Source of the DNA: a virus
Direction: 5' to 3' (one strand)
Length of the DNA stretch: 56,457 nt
IMG/VR virus record: IMGVR_UViG_3300042990_000014
Coordinates: 1-56,457 of that record
In this document: positions 34,224 to 45,993 of the stretch, piece after piece
Position numbering within the stretch: the stretch's first letter is position 1
Layout: each line of letters starts with the position of its first letter
Position numbers and translations under genes: made by a program
The notes under the pieces: generated by a model
Told to the model about the DNA's origin: nothing
The model's database searches: none
What the model saw: only the letters and a program-made list of their open reading frames with translations

Positions 34224-34230
34224 GGCTCAC

Positions 34231-34539: not shown

Positions 34540-34560
34540 GGTGCCAGGCTACGCGATCTA

Positions 34561-34611
34561 GCAAAAAGTCAACCCCTCGCGCCCGCCTGAAGTGGCGCGA
34601 GGGGTTGACTT
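34561..34611 (-). terminator. strong rho-independent terminator ending the FtsK-like module
   Basis: 18-bp perfect stem (34566-34583 / 34594-34611) followed on the - strand by TTTTGC. Its 3' arm contains TTGACT, a possible -35 for the next unit. Confidence 0.8.
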
Positions 34612-34639
34612 CCGACCCGTGGGGGTACGTTCGCCGATC

Positions 34640-35101
34640 TTACTGGACCGCGCGACCCCACACGAGCCACCCCGCCACGCAGAGCGCGCCCGTGGTCACA
34701 GCCCACATGATCGCGCTGAGCTGCCACGTGCCGCTGACTCCGCCCGCGATCAGCGCGGTGGCAATGATCATGGTGGTGATGGGCCGGCGGTAGCTGGCGC
34801 GCCGCACGCGGGTACCGCGTCGGTAGTTGTCGTTGTGCTGCACGTTGTGGATGGGCGCCTCGGTCTTGATCGCGCGCCACTCCGCCTCCAGCGCCTCGCG
34901 CCGGGTGCCATGCCAGCGGACGGTACGCGAGGACACCTCACGCCACCAGGGCTTATCGGACGCATGCTGAGCAAAGCGGTGCTTGAGCGAATTGGTGATC
35001 CCCACGTAGAGCAGCCGACGGCGCCGGTCGTACAGGCGGTACACGGCAGTGCGACCCTGTCGCGCGGGCACGTCAGGCAGGTAGCGCGGCGGCTTCATCA
35101 T
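34640..35101 (-). CDS. GIY-YIG domain protein with C-terminal transmembrane segments
   Basis: ATGA-coupled ATG at 35101. Motifs VYRLYD...LLYVGIT..L..R...H and EA..I. Two hydrophobic helices lie at the C-terminus. Confidence 0.7.
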   Translation of the reverse strand: MMKPPRYLPDVPARQGRTAVYRLYDRRRRLLYVGITNSLKHRFAQHASDKPWWREVSSRTVRWHGTRREALEAEWRAIKTEAPIHNVQHNDNYRRGTRVRRASYRRPITTMIIATALIAGGVSGTWQLSAIMWAVTTGALCVAGWLVWGRAVQ

Positions 35102-37029
35102 GCGGCCTTTCTCGAAAGAGTCTTGCCGGTCGGGTAGTAGCGCCCCTGCGGAGCGCCAGCGGGCTGGTGCAGCACGCCGAGCGCGACCAGCTCCTTGAGC
35201 GCGATGCCCGCCCACCTCTCCGAGTAGCCCAGGTGCTTGGCCACCAGGTGCGGCATGGTGAAGCCAGCGGGGGTAACCGCGCCGGAGGCCACAGCCTCGG
35301 CCACCTTGCGGTGCACCTCGGCGATGCGCGGACCGGCGGCGGCCACGTTGGCCGGCGGCGTGGAGGTCCACACCGGGAAGCGCGTCACGTCCGGCAGCGG
35401 CGGCGCGAGCCCGGTGGGGGCTGCCGCGCCCACCGGCCGCCCAGCCTTGCGCGCCTCGACGCGCGCCCGCTTGACGTCCATCGCGGCGGCCTGGATCTTG
35501 AACCGGTCGAGGTACTGGCGCCCGGCGGCATTCGCCGCACCCACGTCCAGCCCGCGCCACGTGCTGGTGGGCAGGTACTCGGCGGCCTGCGCATCAGTGA
35601 AGTGGTAGCTACGGAAGGGCGCGCTGCGCCCGCCGGGCAGCAGGTCCACCAGGTAGGCATAGCCCGGGGTGGGTGGGAAGCTGCTGGGGTTGATCGAGAT
35701 CTCAAAGATGTGCTTCACGTCCTTGCTCTTGCTCCGGAACGCCAAGCCGTTGCCCATCAGCAAGTTAGACCGAATCGACTCGGCGTAGTTCTTCGGGCTC
35801 GACCCGCCGAACGCGTCCAGCAGGGGAGACTGACTGGCCAGGATGCAGGCCACCCCCACCTTGCCCCCCTCGCGCGCGATGGTGGCCACCATCTCCTGGA
35901 TCTCCGGGAAGATCAGCAGCTTGTGGCACTCGTCCATGAAGATCAGCAGTCCGGGGCGTGCTGCGGTGGGAGTGAACCCCGTCCACCCCTCGATGTCGTT
36001 CTCGTCCTGGCGGAGGTCAATCACGCGCAGCGCGTCCCGCAGCATGATCACGGTCTCGGCCGGAGTCTTGGCCACCCGGTCGGCGTACTTCGTGAGCACG
36101 GTGGGCGACGACGCGCCGCCCTGCCCGTCGGCGTACTGCACCACGGTGGGGTGGCTGACGCTGGCCGCGATCGAGACCATGATCGAGTCGCCGGTACGGC
36201 TCTTGCCGGAATCCGTGCCACCCTGCATGTACCCGCCGTAGAGCCGGCTCTTGCTGTACACCCGCCAGCGCGCGACACCGATGCCGTCCGCGAACGGCCC
36301 CAGCGCCACGGTGCCGGTGGCGCTGTCGAACGCGCTCGGCCCCGGCCACAGGATCTCCTGCTTGATCGGGGACGTGGTCACGATGGTGAGTAGCTGGTGA
36401 GGCTCCGGCAGCGTGGTGTGCCTCTCGATGATCAGCTCCTGCCCGTCACGCAGCGAGAGGCCGCCCCGGATCCTCTCCATGGCCCCCGTGACGGTGCTCT
36501 GCTCCTGCACGCCGGGCACGAGGCGCAGCGTGTACCGCACGCCAGATCCGATTACTTCGGGATCCACCAGGCGTGAGCCGGGCACCGCGCGGCTGGGGGC
36601 GCCCACGTTGCGCTCCCAGCGCTCGGCGTACTCCGTGGGCGCCGCTGCGCGCTCGACGACAGCGTCTTTAATCCGGTGGGTACGCCACCAGTTCAGGGAG
36701 ATCACGCTGACCATGAGCGCCAGCACCTCGACGGCGCCCCAGGACAGCCCGGTGGCCGTGACCGAGGTGAGCCAGCCGGCGGCAGCCAGCAGGAATGCGG
36801 CGAGGCGTGAGCGCGACTTCGGGCACGAGATCTTCTGGCCGCGCTTCATCGCCACCAGCACCGCCAGCACGAACGCGGTCGCGCCCACGCTGGCGGCGGT
36901 CGCGGCCTCGTGGCCGGTCGCACTGGCAACTGCGTGGGTCGCGGCGGCGGCCACAACCAGCAGCCCCACAGCAGCGTGGGGCGCGAGCTGTACGCCGATG
37001 CCTGTGTGAGGCTGCTGGGTAGCGATCAT
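35098..37029 (-). CDS. FtsK/SpoIIIE/TraB-like membrane DNA translocase
   Basis: ATG at 37029 preceded by GGAGGAG. N-terminal TM helices, Walker A GGTDSGKS, Walker B LLIFMDECH, ILASQSP, and a C-terminal winged-helix-like tail. Confidence 0.85.
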   Translation of the reverse strand: MIATQQPHTGIGVQLAPHAAVGLLVVAAAATHAVASATGHEAATAASVGATAFVLAVLVAMKRGQKISCPKSRSRLAAFLLAAAGWLTSVTATGLSWGAVEVLALMVSVISLNWWRTHRIKDAVVERAAAPTEYAERWERNVGAPSRAVPGSRLVDPEVIGSGVRYTLRLVPGVQEQSTVTGAMERIRGGLSLRDGQELIIERHTTLPEPHQLLTIVTTSPIKQEILWPGPSAFDSATGTVALGPFADGIGVARWRVYSKSRLYGGYMQGGTDSGKSRTGDSIMVSIAASVSHPTVVQYADGQGGASSPTVLTKYADRVAKTPAETVIMLRDALRVIDLRQDENDIEGWTGFTPTAARPGLLIFMDECHKLLIFPEIQEMVATIAREGGKVGVACILASQSPLLDAFGGSSPKNYAESIRSNLLMGNGLAFRSKSKDVKHIFEISINPSSFPPTPGYAYLVDLLPGGRSAPFRSYHFTDAQAAEYLPTSTWRGLDVGAANAAGRQYLDRFKIQAAAMDVKRARVEARKAGRPVGAAAPTGLAPPLPDVTRFPVWTSTPPANVAAAGPRIAEVHRKVAEAVASGAVTPAGFTMPHLVAKHLGYSERWAGIALKELVALGVLHQPAGAPQGRYYPTGKTLSRKAA

Positions 37030-37286
37030 GACTTCGGGGACTCCTCCGTCAGTGTGATGACATGGGGCCTGAACGGCAGCGCCTCGGCGCGGACCCGTTC
37101 GGCGTACGCGACGCCCGCGATGAACGCCTGTCGCCAGACTTCGGCGGTCGCGCGCTCGGCGTCGTGCTCCCATCGCGCACGCAGCTCGCCACCCCAGCTG
37201 CGCCCAGCGCCCGAATCCACGCCGAGCTCGGCCACCCACTTCACGAGGTGCGCGGGCGGCTTAATCTCTTCCTCCAGGCTCGCCAC
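37026..37286 (-). CDS. hypothetical protein (86 aa)
   Basis: I chose the GTG at 37286, which follows GGAGAGGGAGAG. The ORF-track start at 37325 is also possible. Confidence 0.55.
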   Translation of the reverse strand: MASLEEEIKPPAHLVKWVAELGVDSGAGRSWGGELRARWEHDAERATAEVWRQAFIAGVAYAERVRAEALPFRPHVITLTEESPKS

Positions 37287-37364
37287 GATCTCTCCCTCTC
37301 CTCGCGCTGATCTAGCATCTTGCACCGCACCCCGCCGAAGCGGGGTACCGTGCGAGCGGCTCGG

Positions 37365-38120
37365 TCAGCGGCCACCCGTGAGGTGTTCCTTGTCCCCGGA
37401 AGCCTCCGGACTGGCCAGGTACGCCTCCTGCACACCCTTGTTGATGTCGGTGAGCGCCTTGGCGAGCATCGCCCACGCGGCCTCCGCCGCACTGGACTTA
37501 ATCCGCGCCTCGCTGGCCAGCGCCAGGACGGTGGGACCATGCTTCGCGGCCTCCAGCCCGGCGAGGAAGGTCTCCCCGCCCCCGTGCTCGGCGTACACCT
37601 CGGCCACCGCCTGCGCGTGGGCGATGGCGGGGTCGAGACCGGTAACTTCGGACATGATGGAACCTGCTTCCTTTTTCGGGAACATGTGGACAACGTTGGA
37701 AGGCGCCTCGGTGGCGCTCTCCGGTGGCGCGACCGGCGCTGGCTGGACGGCCGGTAGCGCAGGTGCGGCGGGGATTAAATGGATGGCTTGCGCAGGCACG
37801 AAGGCGTCGTCAATTCGCTGACTGGCCGGGCGCCCCTCGCCAGCCACCGCCAAGAAGCTGTCCGGCGCCGTCGGTCCGGATGTCTTGGCGGTGTGCGCGC
37901 GGCGCGCTTCGGTCTTCGCGCTGAGCATGTCGCCCCACAGGTCCATGCACCACTCTTTCGAGCCGTAGCGGGGCTGGTATCCGGGCTGCCCCTGCTGGCG
38001 CAGTTTCTCCAGCTTCCGCTCCCAGCGCGGAGAGGTCTTGCCCTGCGCGGCGTACTTCAGGTCGGTGGCCGCGCGCGTGGCGAGGTAGTACGCGCAGTAG
38101 ATGAGCAGGACAATCTCCAT
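37365..38120 (-). CDS. membrane-anchored hypothetical protein (251 aa)
   Basis: ORF track; N-terminal hydrophobic helix. Confidence 0.7.
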   Translation of the reverse strand: MEIVLLIYCAYYLATRAATDLKYAAQGKTSPRWERKLEKLRQQGQPGYQPRYGSKEWCMDLWGDMLSAKTEARRAHTAKTSGPTAPDSFLAVAGEGRPASQRIDDAFVPAQAIHLIPAAPALPAVQPAPVAPPESATEAPSNVVHMFPKKEAGSIMSEVTGLDPAIAHAQAVAEVYAEHGGGETFLAGLEAAKHGPTVLALASEARIKSSAAEAAWAMLAKALTDINKGVQEAYLASPEASGDKEHLTGGR

Positions 38121-38122
38121 GA

Positions 38123-38611
38123 TCAGTACCCCTCGTCCATGCCGGGGGCGCCGCGCTTGCCCTTACCGAACAGGTGGCCACTCTTCACCGTGCGCTGCGC
38201 GAAGGCGATAGCCACGCCCAGCAGGACCAGGGTCACCACGGTGGGCGCCGCCTTGCCCAGCGCACTGTGGATGGGGTCAGTCGCCCACTCCGCCGCGTCG
38301 TGCGAGCGGTCCATCACCCACTTGCCGACGCCGCCTGGCGCGATGCCCGCCAGGGTCGGCAGCACGATCGCGGAGTAGACGGCGATTTTGTTGGGCTCCC
38401 CGTCCATCGCGAGGTCACGAATGGTCAGCGCCAGCAACGGAATGAATATCACCAGCACGTACCAGCCCAGCCCGTGACCCACCGACTCGACGGTGTCCCC
38501 GACCCACATGCCGGGCGCGAACGCGCCCGCCAGGATCGCGCACCCGAACGAGGCCCACGCCATGATCGGGACAGTGACGCCCCTGATCTGCGCTTTCACG
38601 CCCTTAGCCAT
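38123..38611 (-). CDS. polytopic membrane protein (162 aa)
   Basis: ATG at 38611 preceded by AAAGGAG; at least 4 hydrophobic helices. Confidence 0.7.
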   Translation of the reverse strand: MAKGVKAQIRGVTVPIMAWASFGCAILAGAFAPGMWVGDTVESVGHGLGWYVLVIFIPLLALTIRDLAMDGEPNKIAVYSAIVLPTLAGIAPGGVGKWVMDRSHDAAEWATDPIHSALGKAAPTVVTLVLLGVAIAFAQRTVKSGHLFGKGKRGAPGMDEGY

Positions 38612-38627
38612 GATCAATCTCCTTTCT

Positions 38628-39077
38628 CTACAGGAAGATCCAGCCGGCGAGAACGCCAGCGGGACGAATGAGGTAGTCCGCGACCCAAGGCCCCGGACCC
38701 ACCAGGATGAACAGCTTCCACGCCGCGAACACGGGCAGCGCGCGCCCGGGACGCTGTGCGATCCACTCGACGTAGCGGCACACCACAGTGGCGGGACGCC
38801 CGATCAGCCGGAAGTACCCGATGCCCAGCGAGCGCAGCAGCCCGACGTCAGCCGTCCAGCCGGCGCCGTGCGCGTACACGCGCAGCTCGCGGACGCTGGA
38901 CGGCCGCGCGGTGAGCACACTCGGGGGTGTGAAGTACGTGTGAAGTTTCGCGCGGACGTCACTGCGCGTGACTGCCGACTTCCGACCGATCGGACCACCG
39001 GGGAGCGTTTCGCGCTCGGCGGGGGTGTCCTGAAGGTCGGAAGTTCCGACTTCGGAGTTACTGAGCGTGGTGGTCAT
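38628..39077 (-). CDS. membrane protein (149 aa)
   Basis: ORF track; ATGA coupled to the upstream gene. Confidence 0.65.
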   Translation of the reverse strand: MTTTLSNSEVGTSDLQDTPAERETLPGGPIGRKSAVTRSDVRAKLHTYFTPPSVLTARPSSVRELRVYAHGAGWTADVGLLRSLGIGYFRLIGRPATVVCRYVEWIAQRPGRALPVFAAWKLFILVGPGPWVADYLIRPAGVLAGWIFL

Positions 39078-39247
39078 CGCCGCCCCCTCATCAGCTCGAC
39101 GGTCAGCGCGTGCGCAGACCAGCCCGCACTCATGGCGAGGACGGCGGCCACCCAGGGCCAGCCGCCGTTGACCAGCGTGAAGGTGGTCAACGCCAGTTCA
39201 TTCAGCAGGGAGAGCCCCCACAGCCATGCCCATCCGCGACTGGTCAT
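39074..39247 (-). CDS. small membrane protein (57 aa)
   Basis: ATGA-coupled ATG at 39247 (MTSRGWAWLWGLSLL...). Confidence 0.5.
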   Translation of the reverse strand: MTSRGWAWLWGLSLLNELALTTFTLVNGGWPWVAAVLAMSAGWSAHALTVELMRGRR

Positions 39248-39414
39248 CGGCTCAGCCTGGACAGCATCCAGACGAACGCCAGCGGGAACGGCGCGTTGAA
39301 CGCCAGCAGGAGGATGAGCCAGTACGGCGCGCCGTTCACCGTGGCGTGCGCCAGCGCAACGAGATCGGCCACGGTCAGCAGCGCGAAACACGCCCAGATC
39401 AGTACGCGTGCCAT
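39244..39414 (-). CDS. small membrane protein (56 aa)
   Basis: Hand-translated MARVLIWACFALLTVADLVALAH.... GAAGGAAGG RBS. Below the ORF-track cut-off. Confidence 0.5.
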   Translation of the reverse strand: MARVLIWACFALLTVADLVALAHATVNGAPYWLILLLAFNAPFPLAFVWMLSRLSR

Positions 39415-39484
39415 GATGAACCTTCCTTCTTCTCTGCTCGGGAAACGGGAAATGCGGGGCGCGCCCTAGCCGGCGCGCCCCGTT

Positions 39485-39874
39485 CTAGCTTTCGTCCAGC
39501 AGGGTCCAGGACAGCACGATCGCACTGGTGACGCCGTTACCCTCGCAGGCCCGGCCCAGCTCGCGGACGTCCTCGTAGGTGCGGATGGGTTTGCCCAGAT
39601 CACGCCACGCGGCGCCCACATGCGTGATCCCGCCCATGTAGGCCGAGTAGGTCACGTAGTAGGGGTAGCTCGTGCGCGCGAGGGAAGCGCCCTTCACCCG
39701 CGCGCTCAACTCGATGACCTGCTCCAGTAGCTGGACATTCTCCGCCACGAGGCGCTCGGTGTCGGCGGTCGCGACGTCCAGCTCGGCCACCGCCTGCCGG
39801 ATGACGGTGGCGTGCTCCGGCCGCACCTGACGCGCCAGGCGCTCGATCGTTTCGCGCTGCTCATTCGTCAGCAT
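39485..39874 (-). CDS. hypothetical protein (129 aa)
   Basis: The ATG at 39874 (MLTNEQRETIERL) overlaps the upstream stop. Confidence 0.6.
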   Translation of the reverse strand: MLTNEQRETIERLARQVRPEHATVIRQAVAELDVATADTERLVAENVQLLEQVIELSARVKGASLARTSYPYYVTYSAYMGGITHVGAAWRDLGKPIRTYEDVRELGRACEGNGVTSAIVLSWTLLDES

Positions 39875-40050
39875 CAGCGCTGCCCCTCGCTCGTCCTCGA
39901 AATCGCCTTGATCTCCTGAATCAGCAGGGCGAGCGCCGAACCGGTCCCGCACCCCGCACCCACGGACACCCACCACGGCACACTCTCCGGGAGGTACCAC
40001 ATTGCTACGCCGCTCAGGATCAGGCATGCCGTGCGGAAAACGATCATCAT
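39874..40050 (-). CDS. small membrane protein (58 aa)
   Basis: ATG at 40050 after GGGGAGAG; two hydrophobic helices. Confidence 0.5.
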   Translation of the reverse strand: MMIVFRTACLILSGVAMWYLPESVPWWVSVGAGCGTGSALALLIQEIKAISRTSEGQR

Positions 40051-40113
40051 TGCCGACTCTCCCCACATTCATCTCTCGGCGAAGCTCTCACGGTACCACG
40101 GTCAACGCATCCG

Positions 40114-41070
40114 TCAACCGTTCTGAAGTGTCGCATTCCGGCGCGCCAGGGCGCTCTTGCGTGCACTCCCGATCGCGATCAACGCCCCGGTGGCCATGAC
40201 CATGAGCCCGTCCACCGCCAGCGGTCCGAATGCGACGGTCGCGCCGTCCTCGCCCCAGTGCTCCAACAGGCCGGACAGGTGCCGGTAGGAAACGAACGCG
40301 GCCACCAGGGCCACGGGCAGCAGCCCGACGTACCGGAGCGCGATCCAGCGCGCGCCGGAAGGCCACACAACGCGCGCCAGAATCTCTACCGCCACCAGGA
40401 CGGCGACGGGCCAGAAGGCGGAGGCGATGACGGCTCCGGGCTCCGGAGACCAGCCGGAGGGCGCGCCCTCCGGCCCCACGAAGGAATGCGCGACGTTCGC
40501 GGCGATCGACCCGACGCCACCCAGAAGGGCTCCGGCGTACGCCCAGAGCCGGCCGGTGGGGCGGAGCCCTCCGGAGGCCAGAGCCTCCGGCAGAGGTGTG
40601 AGGGCCGGAGGCTCTGGCGTCGAGCGCTCCGCCCTCCGATAGGTGGCTCCACGCCAGAGCCTCCGAAGCCCTCCGGCGCTCTGATCCTCCGGCGCTCCGC
40701 CCTCCGGACTCTGGCCATCTCCGGAGGGCGGAGCCTCCGGAGGGGAATCCTGCACCTCCGGGCTCCGGCCATCCTCCGGAGGTTTAACCTCCGGGCTCCG
40801 GCGCTCCGGGAGAGCCTCCGGCAGGCTCTGGACAAGCCCTCTGATCCTCCGGGCGCGCGACTCCCCGCACCTCTGGTCAGAGGGGAAGAGCTGGTCAGAG
40901 GTCCTCTGGATAACGGAGGCCGCCAGAGGTGCGGAGCGCCAGTCGACTCCGGCGGCCTCCGCATCTCTCCGGAGCCTGGAGACCAGCAGAGCGTCATCGG
41001 CAAGACTAAGGATGCGGCCGGAGGGCACCCCGCTTGCCGGAGGGCTAACCGTCTGCGTAGAGTTGATCAT
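40114..41070 (-). CDS. membrane protein with DUF2637-like C-terminal domain and Pro/Glu-rich linker
   Basis: 318 aa. The C-terminal four-helix region is AANVAHS...WPVAVLVAVEIL...VSYRHL...PLAVDGLMV. Confidence 0.7.
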   Translation of the reverse strand: MINSTQTVSPPASGVPSGRILSLADDALLVSRLRRDAEAAGVDWRSAPLAASVIQRTSDQLFPSDQRCGESRARRIRGLVQSLPEALPERRSPEVKPPEDGRSPEVQDSPPEAPPSGDGQSPEGGAPEDQSAGGLRRLWRGATYRRAERSTPEPPALTPLPEALASGGLRPTGRLWAYAGALLGGVGSIAANVAHSFVGPEGAPSGWSPEPGAVIASAFWPVAVLVAVEILARVVWPSGARWIALRYVGLLPVALVAAFVSYRHLSGLLEHWGEDGATVAFGPLAVDGLMVMATGALIAIGSARKSALARRNATLQNG

Positions 41071-41310
41071 GGTTCGGGTGCCCTTCGAGAGAGGGTGTCA
41101 GATCCTCTGGCTCCGGAGCGTGGTGACACACCCTCCGGAGCTTTTCTGTTCATCGGAACGCTACTCCTCCGGCTTGTGCTCCGCAAGCCAGAGGCTGTAT
41201 CCTCCCGCGCATGAAGCCCAGACGCTCGGTAGTGGGGTGGCGACTCCCCCCGGAGGTGACGGCAGCGGTAGCGGAGTACGGCAGGCAGACCCGGAGGTCT
41301 GCCGCCGGAG
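40434..41310. repeat. dense array of CTCCGG/CCGGAG motifs (about 30 copies, nine as the palindrome CTCCGGAG)
   Basis: Manual scan. Full 8-mers start at 40441, 40569, 40719, 40735, 40774, 40967, 41111 and 41133. The array spans the linker-coding part of 40114-41070 and the non-coding region upstream of it. Confidence 0.8.
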
Positions 41311-41396
41311 CGGCGGAGGTTCTGCTACTGGCCGCACTGAAGGCGGCAGCGGAGCGTGGGGAGTATCGGCCAGCGCCGGAAGGCTGAGCCCACAAG

Positions 41397-41431
41397 GAAG
41401 CCCCGGACGCTTTGGGCGGGTCCGGGGCTTC
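41397..41431 (-). terminator. terminator-like hairpin after the lysis cassette
   Basis: 12-bp stem GAAGCCCCGGAC/GTCCGGGGCTTC with an 11-nt loop. No clear U-tract. Confidence 0.45.
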
Positions 41432-41482
41432 ACTGTCGCGCGGCGCACTCCCTGCGGGCTGGCCCGAAGGAACGTGCCTACC

Positions 41483-41737
41483 CTACAGCGGGTCGTTGTA
41501 CTTCATGATGCGCGGGCGCAGCGCCTGCCCGAAGTTGTCGCGCGGGTCGCTCAACGGCGTCACCTCGCCGCGCACCCAGTACTGCACCCCGAGCTGGATC
41601 GCGGCGAGCGCGAGCACGATACCGGCGGCAACCTTCGCGCCGAACAAGTCGACAAGGAACGCACCGCCCGTCAGCGCCTGGAGCGTGGCCAGCAGCGACA
41701 TGGCGAGCAGTACGGGGTTGCGTTTGATCCGGGTCAC
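41483..41737 (-). CDS. holin-like membrane protein (84 aa, two TM helices)
   Basis: ORF track; last gene of the lysis cluster. Confidence 0.5.
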   Translation of the reverse strand: MTRIKRNPVLLAMSLLATLQALTGGAFLVDLFGAKVAAGIVLALAAIQLGVQYWVRGEVTPLSDPRDNFGQALRPRIMKYNDPL

Positions 41738-41955
41738 GATGTCGCGTCCTGGCGGGCCACAGCCGCGTTCGCCCAGAACATGACCTCCTCCAGCTTCGTC
41801 ATCGCCAGCGCGTACTCACGGCCGGCGGGGAGCAGCTCGCCCAGTTCCAGCGCGAGCCCCATGCACGCCGCGCGCACTCGCTCGTGCTCCGCCTTGCGCT
41901 CCTCGGTCAGCGCCGGATAGAACCTGAAGCGACTACTCAAATCCTGCGGTCCCAT
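41734..41955 (-). CDS. hypothetical protein (73 aa)
   Basis: ORF track; ATGA coupled. Confidence 0.6.
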   Translation of the reverse strand: MGPQDLSSRFRFYPALTEERKAEHERVRAACMGLALELGELLPAGREYALAMTKLEEVMFWANAAVARQDATS

Positions 41956-41965
41956 CTCGTCTCCC

Positions 41966-42211
41966 TCAGTTCTTCGTGATCAGCCCGAAGATGGCCACAA
42001 CCAGGCCGCCCAGCGCCACCAGCCCCGCGATCACCTTCCACGGCCAGCGGTTCTCTTCCAGCTCGCGGAGGCGCCGCTCGTGGTCGCCCTGCGCGGCCTT
42101 GACCGCCTTCACATCGCGGGCCGTGTTCACGGTGGTGGCCTCCACCCTGGTCAGCTTCTCGTAGATGCTGCGGAGAGAGATGACCACGCCGGGCTCCGGG
42201 ACGGTGGTCAT
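41966..42211 (-). CDS. membrane protein with C-terminal TM anchor (holin/spanin-like)
   Basis: 81 aa; coiled N-terminal half followed by WKVIAGLVALGGLVVAIFGLI. Confidence 0.5.
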   Translation of the reverse strand: MTTVPEPGVVISLRSIYEKLTRVEATTVNTARDVKAVKAAQGDHERRLRELEENRWPWKVIAGLVALGGLVVAIFGLITKN

Positions 42212-42960
42212 TCCTTCATCCGCGCGGAGATCATGTTCCCGACCTGCGCGGAGATGGAGCCGCCGATGATCGCGGCCACCCGCTGCGCGAGCTCTTCGAG
42301 CTGCGCGGGGGTGAGCACGGCCGCCGGCCGTGCAATGAGCGCATCCACCTTGACGGTGAGTGCCTTCAAGTTGGCGCGCCCCGCCGGCAACGGCGAGCCG
42401 CTACGCACGTCCATACCGTCGCCCAGCCACTGCTGGAGCCCGTCGTTGGTCAGGCCGCCCGGACCGCCAAGAAGTTCGGTCTTGAGCTGACGGATGGTGT
42501 CCGCGTCGAGCGTCATGCTGTCTCCACTCGTGAAGGGGTCGTAACTGCCGATGGACTGGGTGGCCCAATCGGAGAAGCACGACAGGTGTACGTGCTCGTC
42601 ATCGCTGTCGTACCGGTGCTGGAAGCCGTCCTCGTGCGTGCAGTGGCCACCGCCAAAGTTGATGTACTTGAGCCACGGGAGCTTGCCTGCGCGCGCATCG
42701 CGCAGAATGGCGGCGCCAAGGCCGTTGACGTTCGCGAGGTCGCACGCGCACACGTAGCCGTTCGCCGGGACCGGCTCGGCGGTGTAAGAGAACGGGGTGT
42801 GATCTTCCGGGGTACCAGCCTGGAGGTGGTCTTCGTTACCGATCGTGCCCAGCACCACGATGCCGTGACGCTGCGCAACGGCCACCATGTCCGCGATCGG
42901 GCGTGCCAACGTCCAGTGCCTGCCAGCGTTTACCCAGGTCCAATACGCTTGAGTTGCCAT
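42208..42960 (-). CDS. endolysin, zinc peptidase (M15/VanY-like) type
   Basis: ATG at 42960 after AGGGAGGG. Contains His/Asp metal-ligand-like strings EDHTPF, CACDL and DDEHVHLS. Located next to the holin-like genes. Confidence 0.55.
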   Translation of the reverse strand: MATQAYWTWVNAGRHWTLARPIADMVAVAQRHGIVVLGTIGNEDHLQAGTPEDHTPFSYTAEPVPANGYVCACDLANVNGLGAAILRDARAGKLPWLKYINFGGGHCTHEDGFQHRYDSDDEHVHLSCFSDWATQSIGSYDPFTSGDSMTLDADTIRQLKTELLGGPGGLTNDGLQQWLGDGMDVRSGSPLPAGRANLKALTVKVDALIARPAAVLTPAQLEELAQRVAAIIGGSISAQVGNMISARMKE

Positions 42961-43010
42961 CGCCCTCCCTAGATCGAATGCCACACACTCTCACACCGTA
43001 CGCGCCACGG

Positions 43011-44525
43011 TTACGCCAGTGGTGACAGAGAGGTATGGGGAAGATGCCCGGCAGGCTGGCTCACGGTGACCGGGGAGCGTACGGCCTCGGCGTACATGAC
43101 CATGGCGACAGCGTCACCACGGTCCGGCGAGCGCTTCAGGCGCGTTATGACGTCATCCTTGTTCTCCACCTTGATCTTCGGTGGGATGCCGGGGGCGATG
43201 GACCACGTGGGGGTGGTGAGATCTGACGTCAGCAGGTCATCCGGCGGCAACGCCAGCGTGGGCGCATACTCCGGATCCAACAGCTCACGCAGGTGCCAGT
43301 ACGCGGCGGAGCGCACGTTCACGAAGCCGTACTCCCGGGACCGGTCGCGCAGCGGACTCTTGCCAGCGCCCACGTAGGCCACCGGGTGCAGCTTCTTCTC
43401 CCGCATCCGGTCAAACACCCCGGCGCCCACGCCGGCCACGTCCACGATCGCGCGCCCGCGCTCGGCTTCGGCCAGTTCAGCCACCTTCATCGTGTCGCGC
43501 CCCTGGTGGGGCTTAAGCGTGATGACGTGGCCGGAGCGGTGCGCCAGGACGGACAGGTCCCCGCCGCGCCCCACATCCACCCCAGTCCAGTACGGCAGCC
43601 CGGCATCCGGCTTGCCCGAGCGCCGCCATTCGTGCCAGCGTTCGTTGGCGTCTTCGATCCAGCGCAGCGGAATGACGCTGTCCTCGTCATCGGCGTGGAA
43701 GTTCCCGAGGACGCGCCCCTGGTACAGCGCGGACTGCTCACCCCACTGGATCATGCGCTGGGCTGCCCACTGTGCCGAGATGCGCCCGGCGGCGATGGCC
43801 TGCTCCAGCGTGACGTGGATGGTGTGCCAGTCCTCGTAGCCCGGCGCGCGACGGTGGATGTCGTAGAAGCGGCCAGCGGGTCCGCCGGGCGTGGACATTG
43901 CGAAGATGTACGCCTCCGTGCCGCTGGCCGTGCCCGCGTTGGACAGCGCACCCTCGATCGCGTCCCAGGTGGCGGGGTCGATGATCTTCGCCTCGTCCAG
44001 CACGTACAGGATGTGGTCACCGTGCGCGCCCTCGATCCGCTCCGGCTGATTGGAGGCCACGGCAGTGGCGGCGCCGTAACGCAGCTTGAGGTGCAGGTCC
44101 AGCAGCTCGGTGCGCTCACTGAACGGCTCGCGTCCGACCACGTCCCAACGGATGCGGCGCGCCCATTTGTGGATCTCCGGCCACAGGTAGACGGAGAGCT
44201 GCCGCCAGACGCTAGCGGTGGTGATCGCCTTCCAGTCGATCTCCAGCGCGTCCCGCGTGGTGGCGAACCACAGCACAGCGATGGCCATGTCCGTGGTCTT
44301 GCCCAGCCCGTGGGGTCCGCGCTCGGTCACCCGTTTGTGCTCCACCAGGGCGTTGAGCCCCTCCTCCTGGTACGGAGCCAGGCCCCCGCCCGGTGGCCAG
44401 CGGATGCAGTCACGCGCCCACCCGGCGGGGTCGTTCACGTACTTCAGGGCCACGCGCTTGGCGCGCTCGCCCTGCTGTTGCTGGAGATCTCGCAGGCGGC
44501 GGAGTGCGGCGAGATACTCGCTCAC
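43011..44525 (-). CDS. terminase large subunit
   Basis: 504 aa. Walker A GPHGLGKTT, Walker B-like ILYVLDEA, and a C-terminal nuclease-like domain. Confidence 0.85.
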   Translation of the reverse strand: MSEYLAALRRLRDLQQQQGERAKRVALKYVNDPAGWARDCIRWPPGGGLAPYQEEGLNALVEHKRVTERGPHGLGKTTDMAIAVLWFATTRDALEIDWKAITTASVWRQLSVYLWPEIHKWARRIRWDVVGREPFSERTELLDLHLKLRYGAATAVASNQPERIEGAHGDHILYVLDEAKIIDPATWDAIEGALSNAGTASGTEAYIFAMSTPGGPAGRFYDIHRRAPGYEDWHTIHVTLEQAIAAGRISAQWAAQRMIQWGEQSALYQGRVLGNFHADDEDSVIPLRWIEDANERWHEWRRSGKPDAGLPYWTGVDVGRGGDLSVLAHRSGHVITLKPHQGRDTMKVAELAEAERGRAIVDVAGVGAGVFDRMREKKLHPVAYVGAGKSPLRDRSREYGFVNVRSAAYWHLRELLDPEYAPTLALPPDDLLTSDLTTPTWSIAPGIPPKIKVENKDDVITRLKRSPDRGDAVAMVMYAEAVRSPVTVSQPAGHLPHTSLSPLA

Positions 44526-44683
44526 GTATCGTCGCCTGCGACGTACGGCCCGCGCTCCCAGGAAGGATCGACAGGCTCAGCGACGGGAGGGCGACCGCTC
44601 TTGTCCAGAGTCCAGTAATCGCTCCCCACCTCCAGCCGGTCGCCCGGCTGGAGTGGCAGGATCTGGATCTCCTCGTCGCTCAC
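44522..44683 (-). CDS. hypothetical protein (53 aa)
   Basis: GTGA-coupled GTG at 44683 (VSDEEIQILPL...), in the same frame as ORF 44522-44707. Confidence 0.5.
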   Translation of the reverse strand: MSDEEIQILPLQPGDRLEVGSDYWTLDKSGRPPVAEPVDPSWERGPYVAGDDT

Positions 44684-44841
44684 AGCGCATCCCAGCGCCG
44701 CGCCCACCGCACACCGTCACGCCAGGTGGCGCGCGGCCTCACGCCCATACTCACGTCCACGACCCACGCCACGGGGAACAGACTGGCGGCCACCACCATG
44801 CGCCCGCTGACGAGCGCGAACCGACGCAGCGCGCGGATCAC
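44680..44841 (-). CDS. hypothetical protein (53 aa)
   Basis: Hand-translated VIRALRRFALVSGRMVVAAS.... GTGA coupled at both ends. High GC3. Fills a gap in the ORF track. Confidence 0.45.
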   Translation of the reverse strand: MIRALRRFALVSGRMVVAASLFPVAWVVDVSMGVRPRATWRDGVRWARRWDAL

Positions 44842-45380
44842 GGCGCGCTCTCTCCGGACGCGATCTCCGCCTCCACCCGCGCGATCTCCGCCTGGATCGC
44901 GTCGAGAGAAAGGTTCTCGAACTTCGTCGGGGCGTCGAGGCCGCGCAGCTTGGCGAGACGCTCCTCGGCCCGCGACATCCGGTCCATGGCGGCCAGCTTC
45001 GGCATGTCGTCAATGAGCGGGACATCCTTGCCGCTCTCCGGATCCTTGACGCACACCACCTTGCCGTGACTCACCGTCGGGTGGTCCGTGCGCGCGACGT
45101 CGCGCGCCATCACGTAGATCTCCTCCGCCCGGAGTACGGCCCGCGCGCGCAGCTCCTCGGCCGGAGCCTTGATCGTCTCCAGGAGAACGGTCTTGATCGC
45201 GCGGTGCGCATTCTGCTTGCCGCCATACCCAAGCGCGTCAGAAATCTCCAGGTAGCTGGCTCCGGCGGTGTACATCTTGCACGCCTCGGCGTCGCGTTCG
45301 GCACCCTCTACGGTGCGCCGCAACCTGCCATTTCCGTCCCGGGGGCGGTCGTCCTGGCCAGGAGTCATCTTGGCTACCAT
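44838..45380 (-). CDS. terminase small subunit (HTH)
   Basis: ATG at 45380 after GGGGGAGG. HTH-like AGASYLEISDALGYGGKQNAHRAIKTVL. Lies upstream of the large subunit. Confidence 0.65.
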   Translation of the reverse strand: MVAKMTPGQDDRPRDGNGRLRRTVEGAERDAEACKMYTAGASYLEISDALGYGGKQNAHRAIKTVLLETIKAPAEELRARAVLRAEEIYVMARDVARTDHPTVSHGKVVCVKDPESGKDVPLIDDMPKLAAMDRMSRAEERLAKLRGLDAPTKFENLSLDAIQAEIARVEAEIASGESAP

Positions 45381-45697
45381 GCCCGAAACCTCCCCCACAT
45401 CGTGATCATCTTCCCCAGTATCCACCGGCCTGCCTGCGACAGTAACCAGCAGGTCCAGATGACCGCCAGCACGGGCACCGTGAGCGGCGAGGCGATCACC
45501 GCCACGATGCGCACCCTCTTGCCGATGTGCTCATCTTCCCAGGTCAGCTCCTGCTGCGCACTCAGGATGGCCTGCTGGATCGCGTGCGCGTCCCGAGGGT
45601 CCGGGAAGTCCGCGAGGATCTCCTCGATGGGCATCGTCCGGGCGCGCTTCGCCGAGTAGTAGGCCGCGCGCGTGCGGACGTCCTCGATCGCGCTCAC
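45374..45697 (-). CDS. membrane protein (107 aa)
   Basis: ORF track; GTGA coupled; C-terminal TM helix. Confidence 0.6.
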   Translation of the reverse strand: MSAIEDVRTRAAYYSAKRARTMPIEEILADFPDPRDAHAIQQAILSAQQELTWEDEHIGKRVRIVAVIASPLTVPVLAVIWTCWLLSQAGRWILGKMITMWGRFRAW

Positions 45698-45993
45698 CCG
45701 AGGTCCCTCACGATCTTCGCCGCCCAGTCCCCGTCATTCAGGAAGCCGCCCTTCTCGTACTTCGGCCGATCGATCCGGCCAGCGCGCGACAGTTCCATGG
45801 TCAGCTCGATCTGGCGCGCCGCGTGCTCACGCACCTGCTCAGAAATAGCGTTCCACACCGCCCACACCGCGATCTCCGCAATAGAGGGCATGTGGTCTGC
45901 GGCTTCATGAGCCAGCGCCACCGTGCCGTGGCGCGCCATGTAGTCAGCGATGGCGTCGCGCGCCATCTCGTTGATCTCCGCCCCGGTCTTCAC
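45694..45993 (-). CDS. hypothetical protein, paralogue B (99 aa)
   Basis: MKTGAEINEMARDAIADY...AADH...IAE, similar to the adjacent gene. Confidence 0.7.
   Translation of the reverse strand: MKTGAEINEMARDAIADYMARHGTVALAHEAADHMPSIAEIAVWAVWNAISEQVREHAARQIELTMELSRAGRIDRPKYEKGGFLNDGDWAAKIVRDLG

What the first reader, a model, noticed from the sequence alone, without database searches (positions are those of the whole stretch)
40434..41310. About 30 copies of CTCCGG/CCGGAG (nine palindromic CTCCGGAG) in under 900 bp: candidate cis site for the FtsK/TraB-like translocase
By manual count there are about 31 hexamer hits, where base composition alone predicts only one or two. This assumes roughly two-thirds G+C, which I estimated by eye. 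The array covers the Pro/Glu-rich linker coding region of 40114-41070, where CCG-GAG reads Pro-Glu. It then continues for 240 bp into the non-coding region upstream, with 8-mers at 41111 and 41133 and hexamers at 41167, 41250, 41291 and 41305. That continuation argues for a DNA-level function.

FtsK, SpoIIIE and TraB all read short 8-bp repeated motifs (KOPS, SRS, TRS/clt) through a C-terminal winged helix. The translocase encoded 4 kb downstream has such a tail.
Basis: partly seen in the sequence, partly recalled or inferred. Interest (0 to 1): 0.75.

Follow-up and report, generated by a model that had tools for sequence, protein, structure and literature searches.

The report
Binding-site array inside a phage gene
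A phage of filamentous actinomycetes carries about 64 copies of a 5-7 bp DNA word packed into the front half of one membrane-protein gene and its promoter; the word is selected at the DNA level and dictates the peptide, and is most likely a docking array read by that gene's own product rather than by the nearby FtsK-like DNA pump.

Summary
Window 40434-41310 has 31 distinct CTCCGG/CCGGAG sites (8 palindromic CTCCGGAG, not 9) against about 1.5 expected. The real unit is the pentamer CRGAG (7-mer S-C-R-G-A-G-S), in both orientations: 64 copies in 40419-41193, and no other cluster in the 56-kb phage-like window.

It is DNA-level. Recoding the 318-aa protein with the phage's codon usage predicts 6.8±2.2 hexamers; 32 are seen. 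The intergenic 140 bp holds 8 pentamers against 0.7 expected.

Seven related lineages keep the array at homologous codon positions but switch the word in concert (CCGGAG, CAGAG, CCAGAAG, CCGGAA). Synonymous codons and linker composition (PE-, QS/AE- or QK-rich) follow the word.

The FtsK-like C-terminal tail stays nearly unchanged while the word changes, so it is a poor candidate reader. So is a newly noticed divergent Arc-like 58-aa gene (41211-41387), which explains part of the "non-coding" stretch.

Best reading: self-encoded sites for the gene's own three-helix N-terminal domain, which a disordered linker joins to a DUF2637 membrane anchor. This resembles SpdA2/sps or lambda O/ori and would tether phage DNA within a TraB/Spd-like module. 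No binding was tested.

The parts
40419..41070 (.). Intragenic part of the array. It holds 56 CRGAG/CTCYG pentamers, including 6 palindromic CTCCGGAG and several CAGAG-C-CTCCG-type 11-mers. It spans the codons for the N-terminal domain and the disordered linker.
   Evidence: Positions are listed. Flanking-base consensus is S-C-R-G-A-G-S. Recoding null: 32 hexamers against 6.8±2.2, and 57 pentamers against 13.4±3.0. Codon-permutation null gives z = 11. The part encoding the transmembrane (TM) helices has none.
41071..41210 (.). Divergent intergenic (promoter/operator) region that carries 8 further pentamers.
   Evidence: 8 pentamers against 0.70 expected, p = 8e-7. The region is conserved in L001, L003, L008 and L014, and there the lineage's own word replaces CCGGAG.
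41111..41140 (.). Inverted pair CTCCGGAG-N14-CTCCGGAG, 22 bp centre to centre, about 40 bp upstream of the ATG at 41070. The 14-bp spacer is exactly inverted in L001/L003.
   Evidence: In L008 the flanks change in a compensating way (GTTCCGGA...TCCGGAAC). In L014 the pair reads CCAGAAGGTG-N6-CACCTTCCAG.
41166..41194 (.). Palindrome/hairpin CCTCCGGCTTG-N7-CAAGCCAGAGG. Its core GCTTGC...GCAAGC occurs in every lineage that has the small Arc-like gene, so it is probably that protein's operator. It is flanked by array words.
   Evidence: Alignment and consensus fold. The core is present in L011, L013 and L014. It is absent in L012, whose 227 bp of available upstream sequence also lacks the small gene.
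40114..41070 (-). Gene that hosts the array. It encodes 318 aa: a three-helix N-terminal domain (about residues 21-82), a disordered Pro/Glu-rich linker (about 85-170), and a four-helix membrane domain related to DUF2637.
   Evidence: Pfam DUF2637, E = 1.3e-5. AlphaFold2 models. The TM domain is 63-78% identical (mostly 65-75%) to Micromonosporaceae DUF2637 proteins. The N-terminal domain family has only 4 true member clusters among 1.84 billion cluster representatives; the search returned 6 hits at E<=1e-3, two of which are unrelated repeat proteins.
41211..41387 (+). Divergent 58-aa ORF, probably an Arc/ribbon-helix-helix-like repressor.
   Evidence: Translation. 68-81% amino-acid identity in five lineages by tblastn; L014 by alignment A9. 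Synonymous differences equal or exceed non-synonymous ones in 4 of 5 comparisons. Weak PHROG hit to an Arc-like repressor, E = 0.009. No Pfam or PDB hit.
41392..41436 (.). G+C-rich inverted repeat directly after the small ORF. It looks like a terminator and lacks a T-run.
   Evidence: Inverted repeat I16. Conserved as a hairpin in alignment A4.
37026..40072 (-). Six small genes lie between the array gene and the FtsK-like gene; most are syntenic in relatives. Predicted products are 195, 105, 149, 164, 251 and 99 aa; at least the 164-aa one looks hydrophobic by eye. None has a Pfam or PHROG hit. By position they correspond to Spd-type genes.
35098..37029 (-). FtsK/SpoIIIE-like ATPase. By eye it has hydrophobic N-terminal segments, a Walker A motif (GGTDSGKS), a Walker B motif (LLIFMDECH) and a conserved C-terminal tail.
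   Evidence: PHROG 1358, E = 6e-7. No Pfam or PDB sequence hit. About 100 homologue clusters, mostly from Micromonosporaceae; some are named 'FtsK domain-containing' by UniRef.

Best explanation
Proposal: the array is a double-stranded-DNA binding-site field for a phage-encoded, lineage-specific DNA-binding protein. The most likely reader is the three-helix N-terminal domain of the protein whose gene hosts the array.

Shown here:
- The window holds about 64 copies of S-C-R-G-A-G-S in one cluster.
- The copies are independent of reading frame and strand.
- They extend into the promoter region.
- They are kept at homologous positions in seven lineages, while two positions of the word change in concert.
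- Codon choice and linker composition follow the word.

Inferred:
- Many copies of the membrane-anchored protein coat about 0.8 kb of the phage's own DNA.
- The inverted pair and the copies flanking the promoter palindrome give autoregulation.
- The coated DNA is held at the membrane next to the co-transcribed Spd-like membrane proteins and the FtsK/TraB-like pump.

The purpose would be to hand phage dsDNA to the pump so it can move between hyphal compartments, or to partition or position it. On this reading the array does the job of a clt or centromere, but the sequence-specific reader is the anchor protein and not the motor's tail.
For: DNA-level selection:
- Recoding null: 32 hexamers against 6.8±2.2.
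- Conservative codon-permutation null: z = 4-11 in six genes.
- The commonest 6-mer count is 32, against 9.6 in the null and 7-9 in four control genes of the same window.
- Rare codons (AGG, AGA, GGA, CCT) are used to build the word.

Localization:
- It is the only cluster in 56 kb.
- The intergenic copies are significant on their own.

Concerted evolution:
- Conserved L-P-E..L-P-E is CCG GAG in window/L001/L008, CCA GAA in L014/L013, and CCG GAA in L011/L012.
- I-Q-R is CAG AGG where I-Q-K is CAG AAG.
- CCAGAA encodes 0 of 26 Pro-Glu pairs elsewhere in L014 but 3 of 5 in its array gene.
- 30 of the 31 CAGAAG copies in the 16.6-kb L014 locus lie in its array.

Link to the N-terminal domain:
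- The array is present in all 7 lineages that have this domain, whichever membrane domain is attached.
- The two residues after the conserved Cys-Gly at the start of helix 3 differ wherever the word differs, and are the same (Glu-Ser) in the two lineages that share CCGGAG.
- Related DUF2637 proteins are commonly fused to recognised HTH domains through similar linkers.

Precedents:
- SpdA2 of pIJ101 binds palindromes that lie inside its own coding region (PMC4170104).
- SpdB2-like membrane proteins of actinophages have been proposed to help spread phage DNA (PMC4447253).
Against: - No binding was tested.
- The N-terminal domain has no detectable similarity to any known DNA-binding fold. Pfam, PHROG and PDB sequence searches were empty. 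Foldseek gave nothing below E = 6.
- The structure models have moderate confidence (pLDDT about 80 over 60 residues).
- The covariation rests on seven lineages. The one shared case (window/L001) is also the closest pair, so common descent could explain it.
- Related words (CGGAAG-type, GAGAG/GAGAC-type) also appear in relatives whose DNA-binding domain is a different C-terminal HTH. That could point to a shared reader that has not been identified.
- Copies in both orientations also raise folding potential (z = -3 to -4), so a structural role is not excluded.
Confidence: 0.45

Rival explanations
1. One reading: the array is a clt-like loading site read by the C-terminal winged helix of the FtsK/TraB-like translocase encoded at 35098-37029.
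For: - The array gene and the FtsK-like gene are syntenic in every relative examined.
- TraB proteins recognise clustered 8-bp repeats through their C termini (PMC4170104, PMC4447253).
- AICE-like relatives L009 and L010 carry clusters of 7-8-mers, also in both orientations, right after their TraB-like genes.
- No other repeat cluster exists in the window that could serve as clt.
Against: - The tail is nearly invariant across lineages whose words differ. Window and L015 share SE[RK]WAGIALKELV but use CCGGAG and GAGAC. L001 and L014 share SERWAHE.LK.LV but use CCGGAG and CCAGAAG.
- The unit is 5-7 bp, and there are 64 copies against about 10 in the candidate clt clusters.
- The array lies inside another gene that has its own candidate DNA-binding domain.
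- The FtsK-like protein is only remotely related to the AICE TraB-like proteins (BLAST E = 0.02-0.09).
- The tail's fold was not modelled.
Confidence: 0.17
2. The array is an extended operator for the divergent 58-aa Arc/ribbon-helix-helix-like protein. It would polymerise along the repeats, as omega or ParR do, and so repress or insulate the operon.
For: - The small gene is adjacent and divergent, and is conserved in 6 of 7 lineages.
- It has a weak hit to an Arc-like repressor.
- From general knowledge, ribbon-helix-helix proteins bind arrays of short direct and inverted repeats; the omega protein of pSM19035 binds heptads in this way.
- Eight copies lie in the shared promoter region.
Against: - Its putative DNA-reading strand ([SRAK]-[VTA]-[VA]-[GT]-W-R-L, with the central G/T-W-R-L nearly fixed) does not track the word.
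- It co-occurs instead with the invariant GCTTGC...GCAAGC palindrome.
- L012 has an array but neither the small gene nor that palindrome in the 227 bp available upstream.
- Relatives L016-L019 have an HTH_17 gene at that position, and L015 has an unrelated 70-aa ORF.
- Assignment to the family rests on E = 0.009 only.
Confidence: 0.1
3. The function lies in nucleic-acid structure rather than protein recognition. The sense and antisense copies would pair to form hairpins in the mRNA, in single-stranded DNA, or as cruciforms. These could control translation or stability of a toxic membrane protein, or act as a priming or recombination signal.
For: - The array regions fold 3-4 SD more stably than synonymously recoded versions in three lineages.
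- Arms of 15-20 nt with 94-100% complementarity are present.
- In L008 the upstream pair changes in a compensating way, and its loop is inverted in L001/L003.
Against: - Pairing alone does not require all sites in a lineage to adopt the same word, or to keep S flanks.
- Two TM-coding control regions also reach z = -1.8 and -2.7.
- There is no Rfam family; only sub-threshold miRNA-like hairpin hits were found.
- Covariation support is minimal (4 sequences; covariation term -1.2 kcal/mol).
Confidence: 0.1
4. The words are read by a host factor, not a phage protein. Candidate roles are a decoy or sponge for a host regulator or restriction system, or a Chi-like cluster that protects an entering DNA end.
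For: - Related purine-rich words occur in relatives that have different phage DNA-binding domains.
- The switch from CCGG-containing to CCAG-containing words would remove CCGG/TCCGGA restriction sites. This point is inference.
Against: - Closely related phages use clearly different words. That fits a co-evolving phage-encoded reader better than a conserved host protein.
- The array is tied to one gene and its promoter in every lineage.
- The hosts are unknown, so this could not be tested directly.
Confidence: 0.08
5. There is no function. The hits would be a by-product of a low-complexity Pro/Glu-rich linker encoded with preferred codons, or of replication slippage.
For: - CCG and GAG are the preferred Pro and Glu codons.
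- 11 of the 21 sense-strand copies read Pro-Glu in frame.
Against: - The peptide explains about 7 of 32 hexamers.
- Copies occur in all three frames, on both strands and in intergenic DNA.
- There is no tandem-repeat structure.
- Lineage-specific rare codons are used at conserved residues.
Confidence: 0.03

Closest known systems
SpdA2 and its sps palindromes on Streptomyces plasmid pIJ101 (Thoma et al. 2014, PMC4170104)
   Same: The cis site lies inside the coding region of the gene for the protein that binds it. The site is palindromic, repeated, and imposes a recurrent peptide motif. The gene belongs to the spread/transfer region of a TraB-type element.
   Different: sps is a 12-bp palindrome present 1-3 times; here a 5-7 bp word is present about 64 times in both orientations. 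SpdA2 is not described as membrane-anchored. No sequence similarity to any PLSDB plasmid was found. Binding has not been shown here.
TraB-clt/TRS of Streptomyces conjugative plasmids (PMC4447253, PMC4170104)
   Same: A single cluster of short repeats lies on an element that encodes an FtsK-like membrane ATPase together with small membrane (Spd-like) proteins. The expected role is to bring double-stranded DNA to the pump.
   Different: Known TRS are 8-bp direct repeats read by the TraB C terminus and specific to each plasmid. Here the tail does not covary with the word, the copies run both ways, they lie in another gene 3 kb upstream, and there are far more of them.
Phage lambda ori iterons inside gene O (general knowledge)
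   Same: The binding sites lie in the stretch that encodes the flexible linker between two domains of the protein thought to bind them through its N-terminal domain.
   Different: Lambda has four 19-bp iterons next to an A+T-rich segment, and O recruits the replisome. Here the C-terminal domain is a membrane anchor. No 100-bp bin falls below 57% G+C, and the cumulative GC-skew extremes lie elsewhere, near 28 and 52 kb.
Centromere arrays bound by small repressor-type proteins, e.g. omega heptads of pSM19035 and ParR-parC of R1 (general knowledge)
   Same: Many short repeats in direct and inverted orientation lie next to the promoter of the operon. An adjacent small Arc-like gene is present.
   Different: No ParA or ParM partner was identified. 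The Arc-like protein does not covary with the word. Most of the array is intragenic.
FtsK-KOPS and SpoIIIE-SRS (general knowledge)
   Same: Short words could be read by the winged helix of an FtsK-family motor.
   Different: KOPS and SRS are spread over the whole replicon with strong strand skew. Here there is one cluster and no skew.
SpdB2-type four-helix membrane proteins, with homologues noted in actinophages phiC31 and VWB (PMC4447253)
   Same: A membrane protein with four predicted helices is encoded near an FtsK-like gene. Such proteins have been suggested to assist the spreading of phage DNA in mycelium.
   Different: SpdB2 binds DNA non-specifically and no site array is known for it. 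Homology to SpdB2 was not tested here.

Membership tests
clt/TRS site of a TraB-type translocase | A single cluster of a short repeated word lies on the element. | tested here: met
   There is one cluster of 64 pentamers at 40419-41193. The background is about 1 per 200 bp, with a maximum of 6.
clt/TRS site of a TraB-type translocase | The repeats are direct 8-bp units. | tested here: not met
   The core is 5 bp, or 7 bp with the S flanks. Orientations are 38 sense and 32 antisense.
clt/TRS site of a TraB-type translocase | The word is specific to, and changes with, the C-terminal recognition domain of the translocase. | tested here: not met
   The tail is nearly invariant in window, L001, L008, L014 and L015, while the words are CCGGAG, CCGGAG, CAGAG, CCAGAAG and GAGAC.
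clt/TRS site of a TraB-type translocase | The translocase C terminus binds the repeats in vitro, and the site is required in cis for transfer. | not testable with these tools
   This needs EMSA or footprinting and genetics.
FtsK/SpoIIIE/TraB family (protein 35098-37029) | Membrane-anchored P-loop translocase domain that matches family models. | tested here: inconclusive
   PHROG 1358, E = 6e-7, over residues 257-404. No Pfam hit at E <= 0.01 and no PDB sequence hit. Walker A and B motifs were seen by eye. Some homologues are named 'FtsK domain-containing' by UniRef.
KOPS/SRS-type guide words | Replicon-wide distribution with strand skew. | tested here: not met
   Outside the array, counts per 5 kb are low and balanced on the two strands. 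The 8-mer occurs only once elsewhere.
SpdA/sps | The site is located within the coding region of the gene for the presumed binder. | tested here: met
   56 of the 64 pentamers lie within codons 1-217 of 40114-41070(-).
SpdA/sps | Sequence homology to the SpdA N-terminal region. | tested here: not met
   tblastn of the whole protein against 72,556 PLSDB plasmids gave no match at E <= 1e-3. SpdA sequences were not compared individually.
Origin of replication with iterons (lambda O type) | Iterons are flanked by an A+T-rich unwinding segment, and the gene product is a replication initiator. | tested here: not met
   The lowest 100-bp G+C content in 39900-41700 is 0.57-0.63. The C-terminal half is a DUF2637-type membrane domain. 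The primase/helicase genes lie elsewhere, at 1819-4659 and 49077-51242.
Ribbon-helix-helix (Arc/CopG) repressors (ORF 41211-41387) | Match to family models and a strand-helix-helix fold. | tested here: inconclusive
   PHROG Arc-like repressor, E = 0.009. No Pfam hit. The PDB profile search gave only a chance-level hit. The structure was not modelled. The sequence pattern fits the fold by eye.
Helix-turn-helix DNA-binding domains (N-terminal domain of 40114-41070) | Recognisable HTH fold or family match. | tested here: inconclusive
   AlphaFold2 gives three helices at 21-40, 51-61 and 70-82, with pLDDT about 80. Foldseek against the PDB gave nothing below E = 6. Pfam, PHROG and PDB sequence searches were empty.
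DUF2637 (PF10935) | Match above the Pfam gathering score. | tested here: met
   25.5 bits against a cut-off of 22.8, over residues 249-311. 63-78% identity (mostly 65-75%) to Micromonosporaceae proteins annotated as DUF2637.

The most novel reading that the evidence does not exclude
Phages of mycelial actinomycetes (Micromonosporaceae) may carry a complete plasmid-style DNA-spreading apparatus: an FtsK/TraB-like pump plus Spd-like membrane proteins. Its cis site would be a field of about 64 binding sites written into the linker codons of a membrane-anchored adaptor protein. The adaptor would coat its own gene and present the phage chromosome to the pump. The phage genome could then move as naked double-stranded DNA between hyphal compartments without lysis. 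The site word and the adaptor would co-evolve lineage by lineage, and the peptide sequence would be dragged along with them.
Probability: 0.2. Interest if true: 0.85.

Novelty: new variant of a known kind. Interest (0 to 1): 0.7.

Why it matters
If the reading is right, three things follow.

1. It is an extreme case of a cis-acting DNA site dictating a protein sequence. The same linker is Pro/Glu-rich, Gln/Ser-Ala/Glu-rich or Gln/Lys-rich depending on which word the lineage uses. This is a caution against reading such low-complexity linkers as protein-level features.

2. It would identify the sequence-specific component of a TraB/Spd-like DNA-moving module as a membrane adaptor and not the motor tail. 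That bears on the open question of how Spd proteins and DUF2637 proteins work in actinomycete conjugation.

3. It gives a concrete, testable handle on the old suggestion that actinophages use Spd-like proteins to spread their DNA through mycelium (PMC4447253). The handle is a swappable word together with a swappable domain.

The protein domain involved is unannotated and very rare. It has 4 true member clusters among 1.84 billion cluster representatives; the search returned 6 hits at E<=1e-3, two of them unrelated repeat proteins.

Tried and rejected
Searches that found nothing useful:
- Megablast of 34000-46000 against INPHARED phages gave no match.
- tblastn of the array protein and the FtsK-like protein against INPHARED phages gave no match.
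- tblastn of the array protein against PLSDB gave no match.
- Tandem Repeats Finder found only three trivial 7-bp runs, so this is not a tandem array.
- Rfam found two tRNAs elsewhere. In the array it gave only sub-threshold miRNA-like hairpin hits, 20-35 bits against gathering scores of 69-100.
- The promoter scan found no sigma-70-like site.
- The word-indexed homology search with the N-terminal domain found nothing.
- The metagenome scan returned two false positives, L006 and L007, which encode an unrelated large protein.
- The genome scans returned nothing or chance hits, L024-L026.
- The 17-mer scan returned unrelated L004 and L005.

Ideas tested and dropped:
- I first guessed that the N-terminal domain was ribbon-helix-helix. 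AlphaFold2 shows three helices and no strand, so I dropped this.
- Foldseek of both models against the PDB gave nothing significant.
- I first read the high conservation of the 'non-coding' upstream region as a structured RNA. It is mostly explained by the 58-aa ORF.
- Origin of replication: there is no A+T-rich segment and no GC-skew turn at the array.
- A KOPS-like role: there is no skew and no dispersed copies.
- Pentamer spacing shows no clear helical or heptad periodicity, only mild preferences for 7, 8 and 10 bp.
- Pfam on ten further ORFs found no integrase or ParA. This covered only part of the window and does not settle the lifestyle.
- One literature search was wasted on unrelated 'TraB/CLT' hits. 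The Vogelmann 2011 paper is not held, so TRS details come from the two Thoma papers only.
Full report

The stretch 40434-41310 holds 24 CTCCGG and 15 CCGGAG on the + strand. That makes 31 distinct sites once the 8 palindromic CTCCGGAG are counted once. The rest of the window predicts 1.55 hits for a stretch of this size. Density is 44 per kb inside the region against 1.8 per kb outside.

De novo word counting shows a second enriched word, CTCTGG/CCAGAG: 11 observed against 0.27 expected. The common unit is the pentamer CRGAG, with C or G strongly preferred on both flanks, i.e. S-C-R-G-A-G-S. There are 64 copies in 40419-41193. They run in both orientations, 38 sense and 32 antisense relative to the gene when counted over 40400-41360 (70 sites). 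Spacing shows no strong periodicity. No other 200-bp window of the 56-kb sequence has more than 6 copies, and copies outside the cluster show no strand skew. Tandem Repeats Finder sees no array, so these are interspersed words and not tandem units.

**2. Context**

The window looks like a complete siphovirus-type genome. It has:
- primase/helicase genes, an exonuclease, a tape-measure protein and a major head protein;
- a portal gene at 32421-34223 and a large terminase gene at 43011-44525;
- two tRNA genes.

On the minus strand the gene order runs:
- terminase, a putative lysin (homology-unassigned; by position and a conserved C-terminal segment) and holin-like small genes;
- an intergenic region, then the array gene (41070 to 40114);
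- six small genes, at least one of which looks membrane-embedded by eye;
- an FtsK-like ATPase (37029 to 35098), a GIY-YIG nuclease, a 102-aa protein, and the portal.

The array gene encodes 318 aa:
- a three-helix N-terminal domain (about residues 21-82, pLDDT about 80);
- a disordered Pro/Glu-rich linker;
- four membrane helices that match DUF2637.

The array fills the domain and linker codons and stops at the membrane part.

**3. DNA level or peptide level?**

I resampled synonymous codons for the actual protein, using the codon usage of 12 confident genes of the window.
- The null gives 6.8±2.2 CTCCGG/CCGGAG (maximum 15 in 5,000 trials). The gene has 32.
- The null gives 13.4±3.0 CRGAG pentamers. 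The gene has 57.

Permuting the gene's own codons among identical residues is a conservative null. It still gives z = 11. The commonest canonical 6-mer occurs 32 times, against 9.6±2.0 in the null and 7-9 in four control genes of the same window.

Of the 21 sense-strand CCGGAG copies inside the ORF, 11 read Pro-Glu. Six sit in frame 1 and use the rare Gly codon GGA. Four sit in frame 2. Ten further copies are antisense.

The truly intergenic 140 bp (41071-41210) holds 8 pentamers against 0.70 expected, p = 8e-7. The Pro/Glu peptide therefore explains about a fifth of the hits, and the word is selected in the nucleic acid.

**4. Relatives**

The family is rare.
- An exhaustive HMMER search of 1.84 billion cluster representatives with the N-terminal domain returned six hits at E<=1e-3. 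Four are true relatives; two are unrelated repeat proteins.
- The other relatives came from viral-contig scans and from homologues of the FtsK-like protein.
- This gave seven lineages with the domain: window, L001/L003, L008, L014, L011, L012 and L013.

All seven have a significant array in the 5' half of the gene and none in the membrane-coding half. The word differs between lineages:

| Lineage | Array word |
|---|---|
| window, L001 | CCGGAG, with some CCAGAG |
| L008 | CAGAG (20 copies against 2.9 expected; no CTCCGGAG at all) |
| L014 | CCAGAAG(G); 30 of the 31 CAGAAG in the 16.6-kb locus lie in the array, p about 1e-64 |
| L011 | CCGGAA and CCGGAG |
| L012, L013 | CRGAA(G) |

A codon alignment of the domain shows that the sites sit at homologous positions and switch together within a lineage:
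- The conserved L-P-E..L-P-E is CCG GAG in window, L001 and L008. It is CCA GAA in L014 and L013, and CCG GAA in L011 and L012.
- I-Q-R is CAG AGG where I-Q-K is CAG AAG.
- P-S is CCC TCC G, CCC TCT G or CCT TCT G, according to lineage.

Codon-pair counts agree. In the other genes of L014, CCAGAA encodes none of 26 Pro-Glu pairs. In its array gene it encodes 3 of 5.

Linker composition follows the word. It is Pro/Glu-rich in window and L001, Gln-Ser/Ala-Glu-rich in L008 and Gln-Lys-rich in L014. The peptide is the passenger and the DNA word is the driver.

That is met in form. But the codon changes are concerted with the lineage's word, which argues for function and not against it.

**5. Who reads the word?**

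Concerted change of dozens of sites calls for a co-evolving reader encoded by the phage. There are three candidates nearby.

(a) The FtsK-like C-terminal tail.
- It is nearly identical in window, L001, L008, L014 and L015, although the words differ.
- The two variable positions in the presumed recognition helix pair window with L015 (CCGGAG and GAGAC) and L001 with L014 (CCGGAG and CCAGAAG).
- So there is no covariation with the word.

(b) A 58-aa divergent ORF that I noticed at 41211-41387 (+).
- It explains most of the striking conservation of the 'non-coding' upstream region.
- It is a real gene. tblastn gives 68-81% amino-acid identity in five lineages, and L014 matches by alignment.
- Synonymous differences equal or exceed non-synonymous ones in four of five comparisons.
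- It has a weak Arc-like repressor hit, E = 0.009.
- Its putative reading strand, which is nearly invariant (G/T-W-R-L core), does not track the word.
- It co-occurs with an invariant palindrome, GCTTGC-N5-GCAAGC, which is probably its operator.
- L012 has an array but neither this gene nor the palindrome in the 227 bp available upstream.

(c) The N-terminal domain of the array gene's own product.
- It is present wherever the array is, whichever membrane domain is attached. The window's membrane domain is 63-78% identical (mostly 65-75%) to DUF2637 proteins of Dactylosporangium, Actinoplanes and other Micromonosporaceae, including one (P0009) encoded in an AICE-like locus. L001, L008 and L014 carry another type.
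- The two residues after a conserved Cys-Gly at the start of helix 3 track the word:

| Residues after Cys-Gly | Lineage(s) | Array word |
|---|---|---|
| Glu-Ser | window, L001 | CCGGAG |
| Gln-Thr | L008 | CAGAG |
| Pro-Ala | L014 | CCAGAAG(G) |
| Ala-Ser | L011 | CCGGAA and CCGGAG |
| Ala-Thr | L012 | CRGAA(G) |
| Pro-Tyr | L013 | CRGAA(G) |

- The wider DUF2637 family is commonly fused through Pro/Ala-rich linkers to recognised HTH domains (HTH_11, HTH_5, HTH_23). The source names include ArsR-, CsgD- and lambda-repressor-like regulators.
- More distant phage relatives (L015-L019) and a Micromonospora chromosomal locus (L020) have the reversed order, membrane domain-linker-HTH. Their own arrays are weaker and of mixed significance: L015 did not exceed its codon-permutation null and L018 was borderline (p = 0.04). 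L020 has GGCGGAAGAG.

A membrane-anchored DNA-binding protein is thus the common theme, and (c) is the best candidate.

The caveats are real. Seven lineages is a small sample. The one shared residue pair belongs to the closest relatives. No known DNA-binding fold could be assigned.

**6. Mechanism proposed**

- Shown: a single, dense, lineage-specific field of short words covers the 5' half of the gene and its promoter. It includes an inverted pair 22 bp apart just upstream of the ribosome-binding site, and words that flank the promoter palindrome.
- Inferred: many copies of the adaptor bind this field, repress their own promoter, and hold the phage chromosome at the membrane.
- Inferred from synteny and from the literature: the adaptor works with the co-transcribed small membrane proteins and the FtsK-like pump. 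This would parallel the TraB-Spd complex that spreads plasmids through Streptomyces mycelium. SpdB2-like proteins of actinophages have been suggested to do the same for phage DNA (PMC4447253).
- Closest precedent for a site within its binder's own gene: SpdA2/sps of pIJ101 (PMC4170104).

In two AICE-like relatives, candidate clt clusters lie right after the TraB-like gene. These are CCGCTACC in L009 and CCGCTAG in L010, each with about 10 copies in about 170 bp and in both orientations. So a short-repeat cis site is a regular part of such modules, but it normally sits elsewhere.

**7. Rivals**

- The FtsK-tail model remains possible if the tail recognises a degenerate purine core common to all the words.
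- An RNA or single-strand structural role is suggested by stronger folding than in recoded controls (z = -3 to -4) and by compensating changes in the upstream pair. It does not explain why all sites in a lineage share one word.
- An origin of replication is unlikely. There is no A+T-rich segment, no skew turn and no initiator-type C-terminal domain.
- A pure coding by-product is excluded.

**8. Novelty and verdict**

The ingredients are known: sites within the binder's gene, short-repeat centromere or clt arrays, and FtsK-like pumps with Spd proteins. The combination appears to be undescribed in the literature I could search. It comprises:
- about 64 sites written through a folded domain and a linker;
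- concerted word switching that drags the peptide along with it;
- a membrane adaptor as the likely reader;
- a phage as the carrier.

The protein domain has no annotation. I rate it a new variant of a known kind, interest 0.7.

Noticed in passing
window 41211-41387 (+): A conserved 58-aa ORF (MKPRRSVVGWRLPPEVTAAVAEYGRQTRRSAAGAAEVLLLAALKAAAERGEYRPAPEG) is transcribed divergently from the array gene. It fell below the 60-aa ORF cut-off. It is probably an Arc/ribbon-helix-helix-type repressor whose operator is the invariant GCTTGC-N5-GCAAGC palindrome at about 41173-41187.
   Followed up: partly
window 41110-41141 vs L001:5930-5961 and L003:6721-6752: A 32-bp segment (GCTCCGGAG-N14-CTCCGGAGC) is 100% identical but inverted relative to its flanks between the window and L001/L003. 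This is an exact inversion of the spacer between two 9-bp inverted repeats. It may be a template-switch or cruciform-type event, or a sign that orientation of the site does not matter.
   Followed up: partly
L009:4470-4745 and L010:10944-11100: In two AICE-like loci with a DUF2637 gene next to a 690-700-aa TraB-like gene, clusters of 7-8-mers begin at or just after the stop codon of that gene. The words are CCGCTACC/GGTAGCGG in L009 and CCGCTAG/CTAGCGG in L010, in both orientations. They are candidate clt sites for Micromonosporaceae AICEs, for which none seem to be described.
   Followed up: partly
L020:5671-6822 (Micromonospora sp. NBC_00362, JAPENH010000001.1): A 383-aa protein has a membrane domain, a long Ala/Glu/Arg-rich segment and a C-terminal HTH. 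Its gene carries 10 of the locus's 11 GGCGGAAG copies, built with the rare GAA codon. It lies downstream of GntR-type regulators and upstream of an FtsK-like gene, next to phage tail genes.
   Followed up: partly
window 40114-40560 vs L001:6520-6960, L008 and L014: The membrane domain of the array gene has been swapped. The window's version is 63-78% identical (mostly 65-75%) to DUF2637 proteins of Dactylosporangium, Actinoplanes and Phytohabitans; one of these (P0009) lies in an AICE-like locus. Relatives that share the N-terminal domain and the array carry a different four-helix domain.
   Followed up: partly
window 41483-42984 (-): A putative lysis cassette (a 258-aa protein without family hits that shares a conserved C-terminal segment with the ~260-aa protein at the same position in relatives, plus holin-like small genes) and the whole FtsK-like module sit between the large terminase and the portal genes. 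This is an unusual place, and it is conserved in all relatives examined.
   Followed up: no
window 34640-35101 (-): A GIY-YIG nuclease gene directly follows, and overlaps the stop of, the FtsK-like gene. It does so in most relatives examined (Pfam-supported in L014, L015, L017-L019; tblastn in L001, L008; no call in L016). Its role next to a DNA pump is unexplained.
   Followed up: no
window 6116-6183 and 6357-6436 (+): Two tRNA genes (Rfam 40 and 51 bits) lie in the early/replication region.
   Followed up: no
L015:16789-19140, L016:17032-20073, L018 and L019: Relatives carry glycosyltransferase and methyltransferase genes inside the head-gene block, after the portal and MuF-like genes. This could indicate virion glycosylation. 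I did not check whether the window has them.
   Followed up: no
window 7556-7563: This is the only CTCCGGAG outside the array. It is isolated and lies in an unassigned early-region ORF.
   Followed up: no
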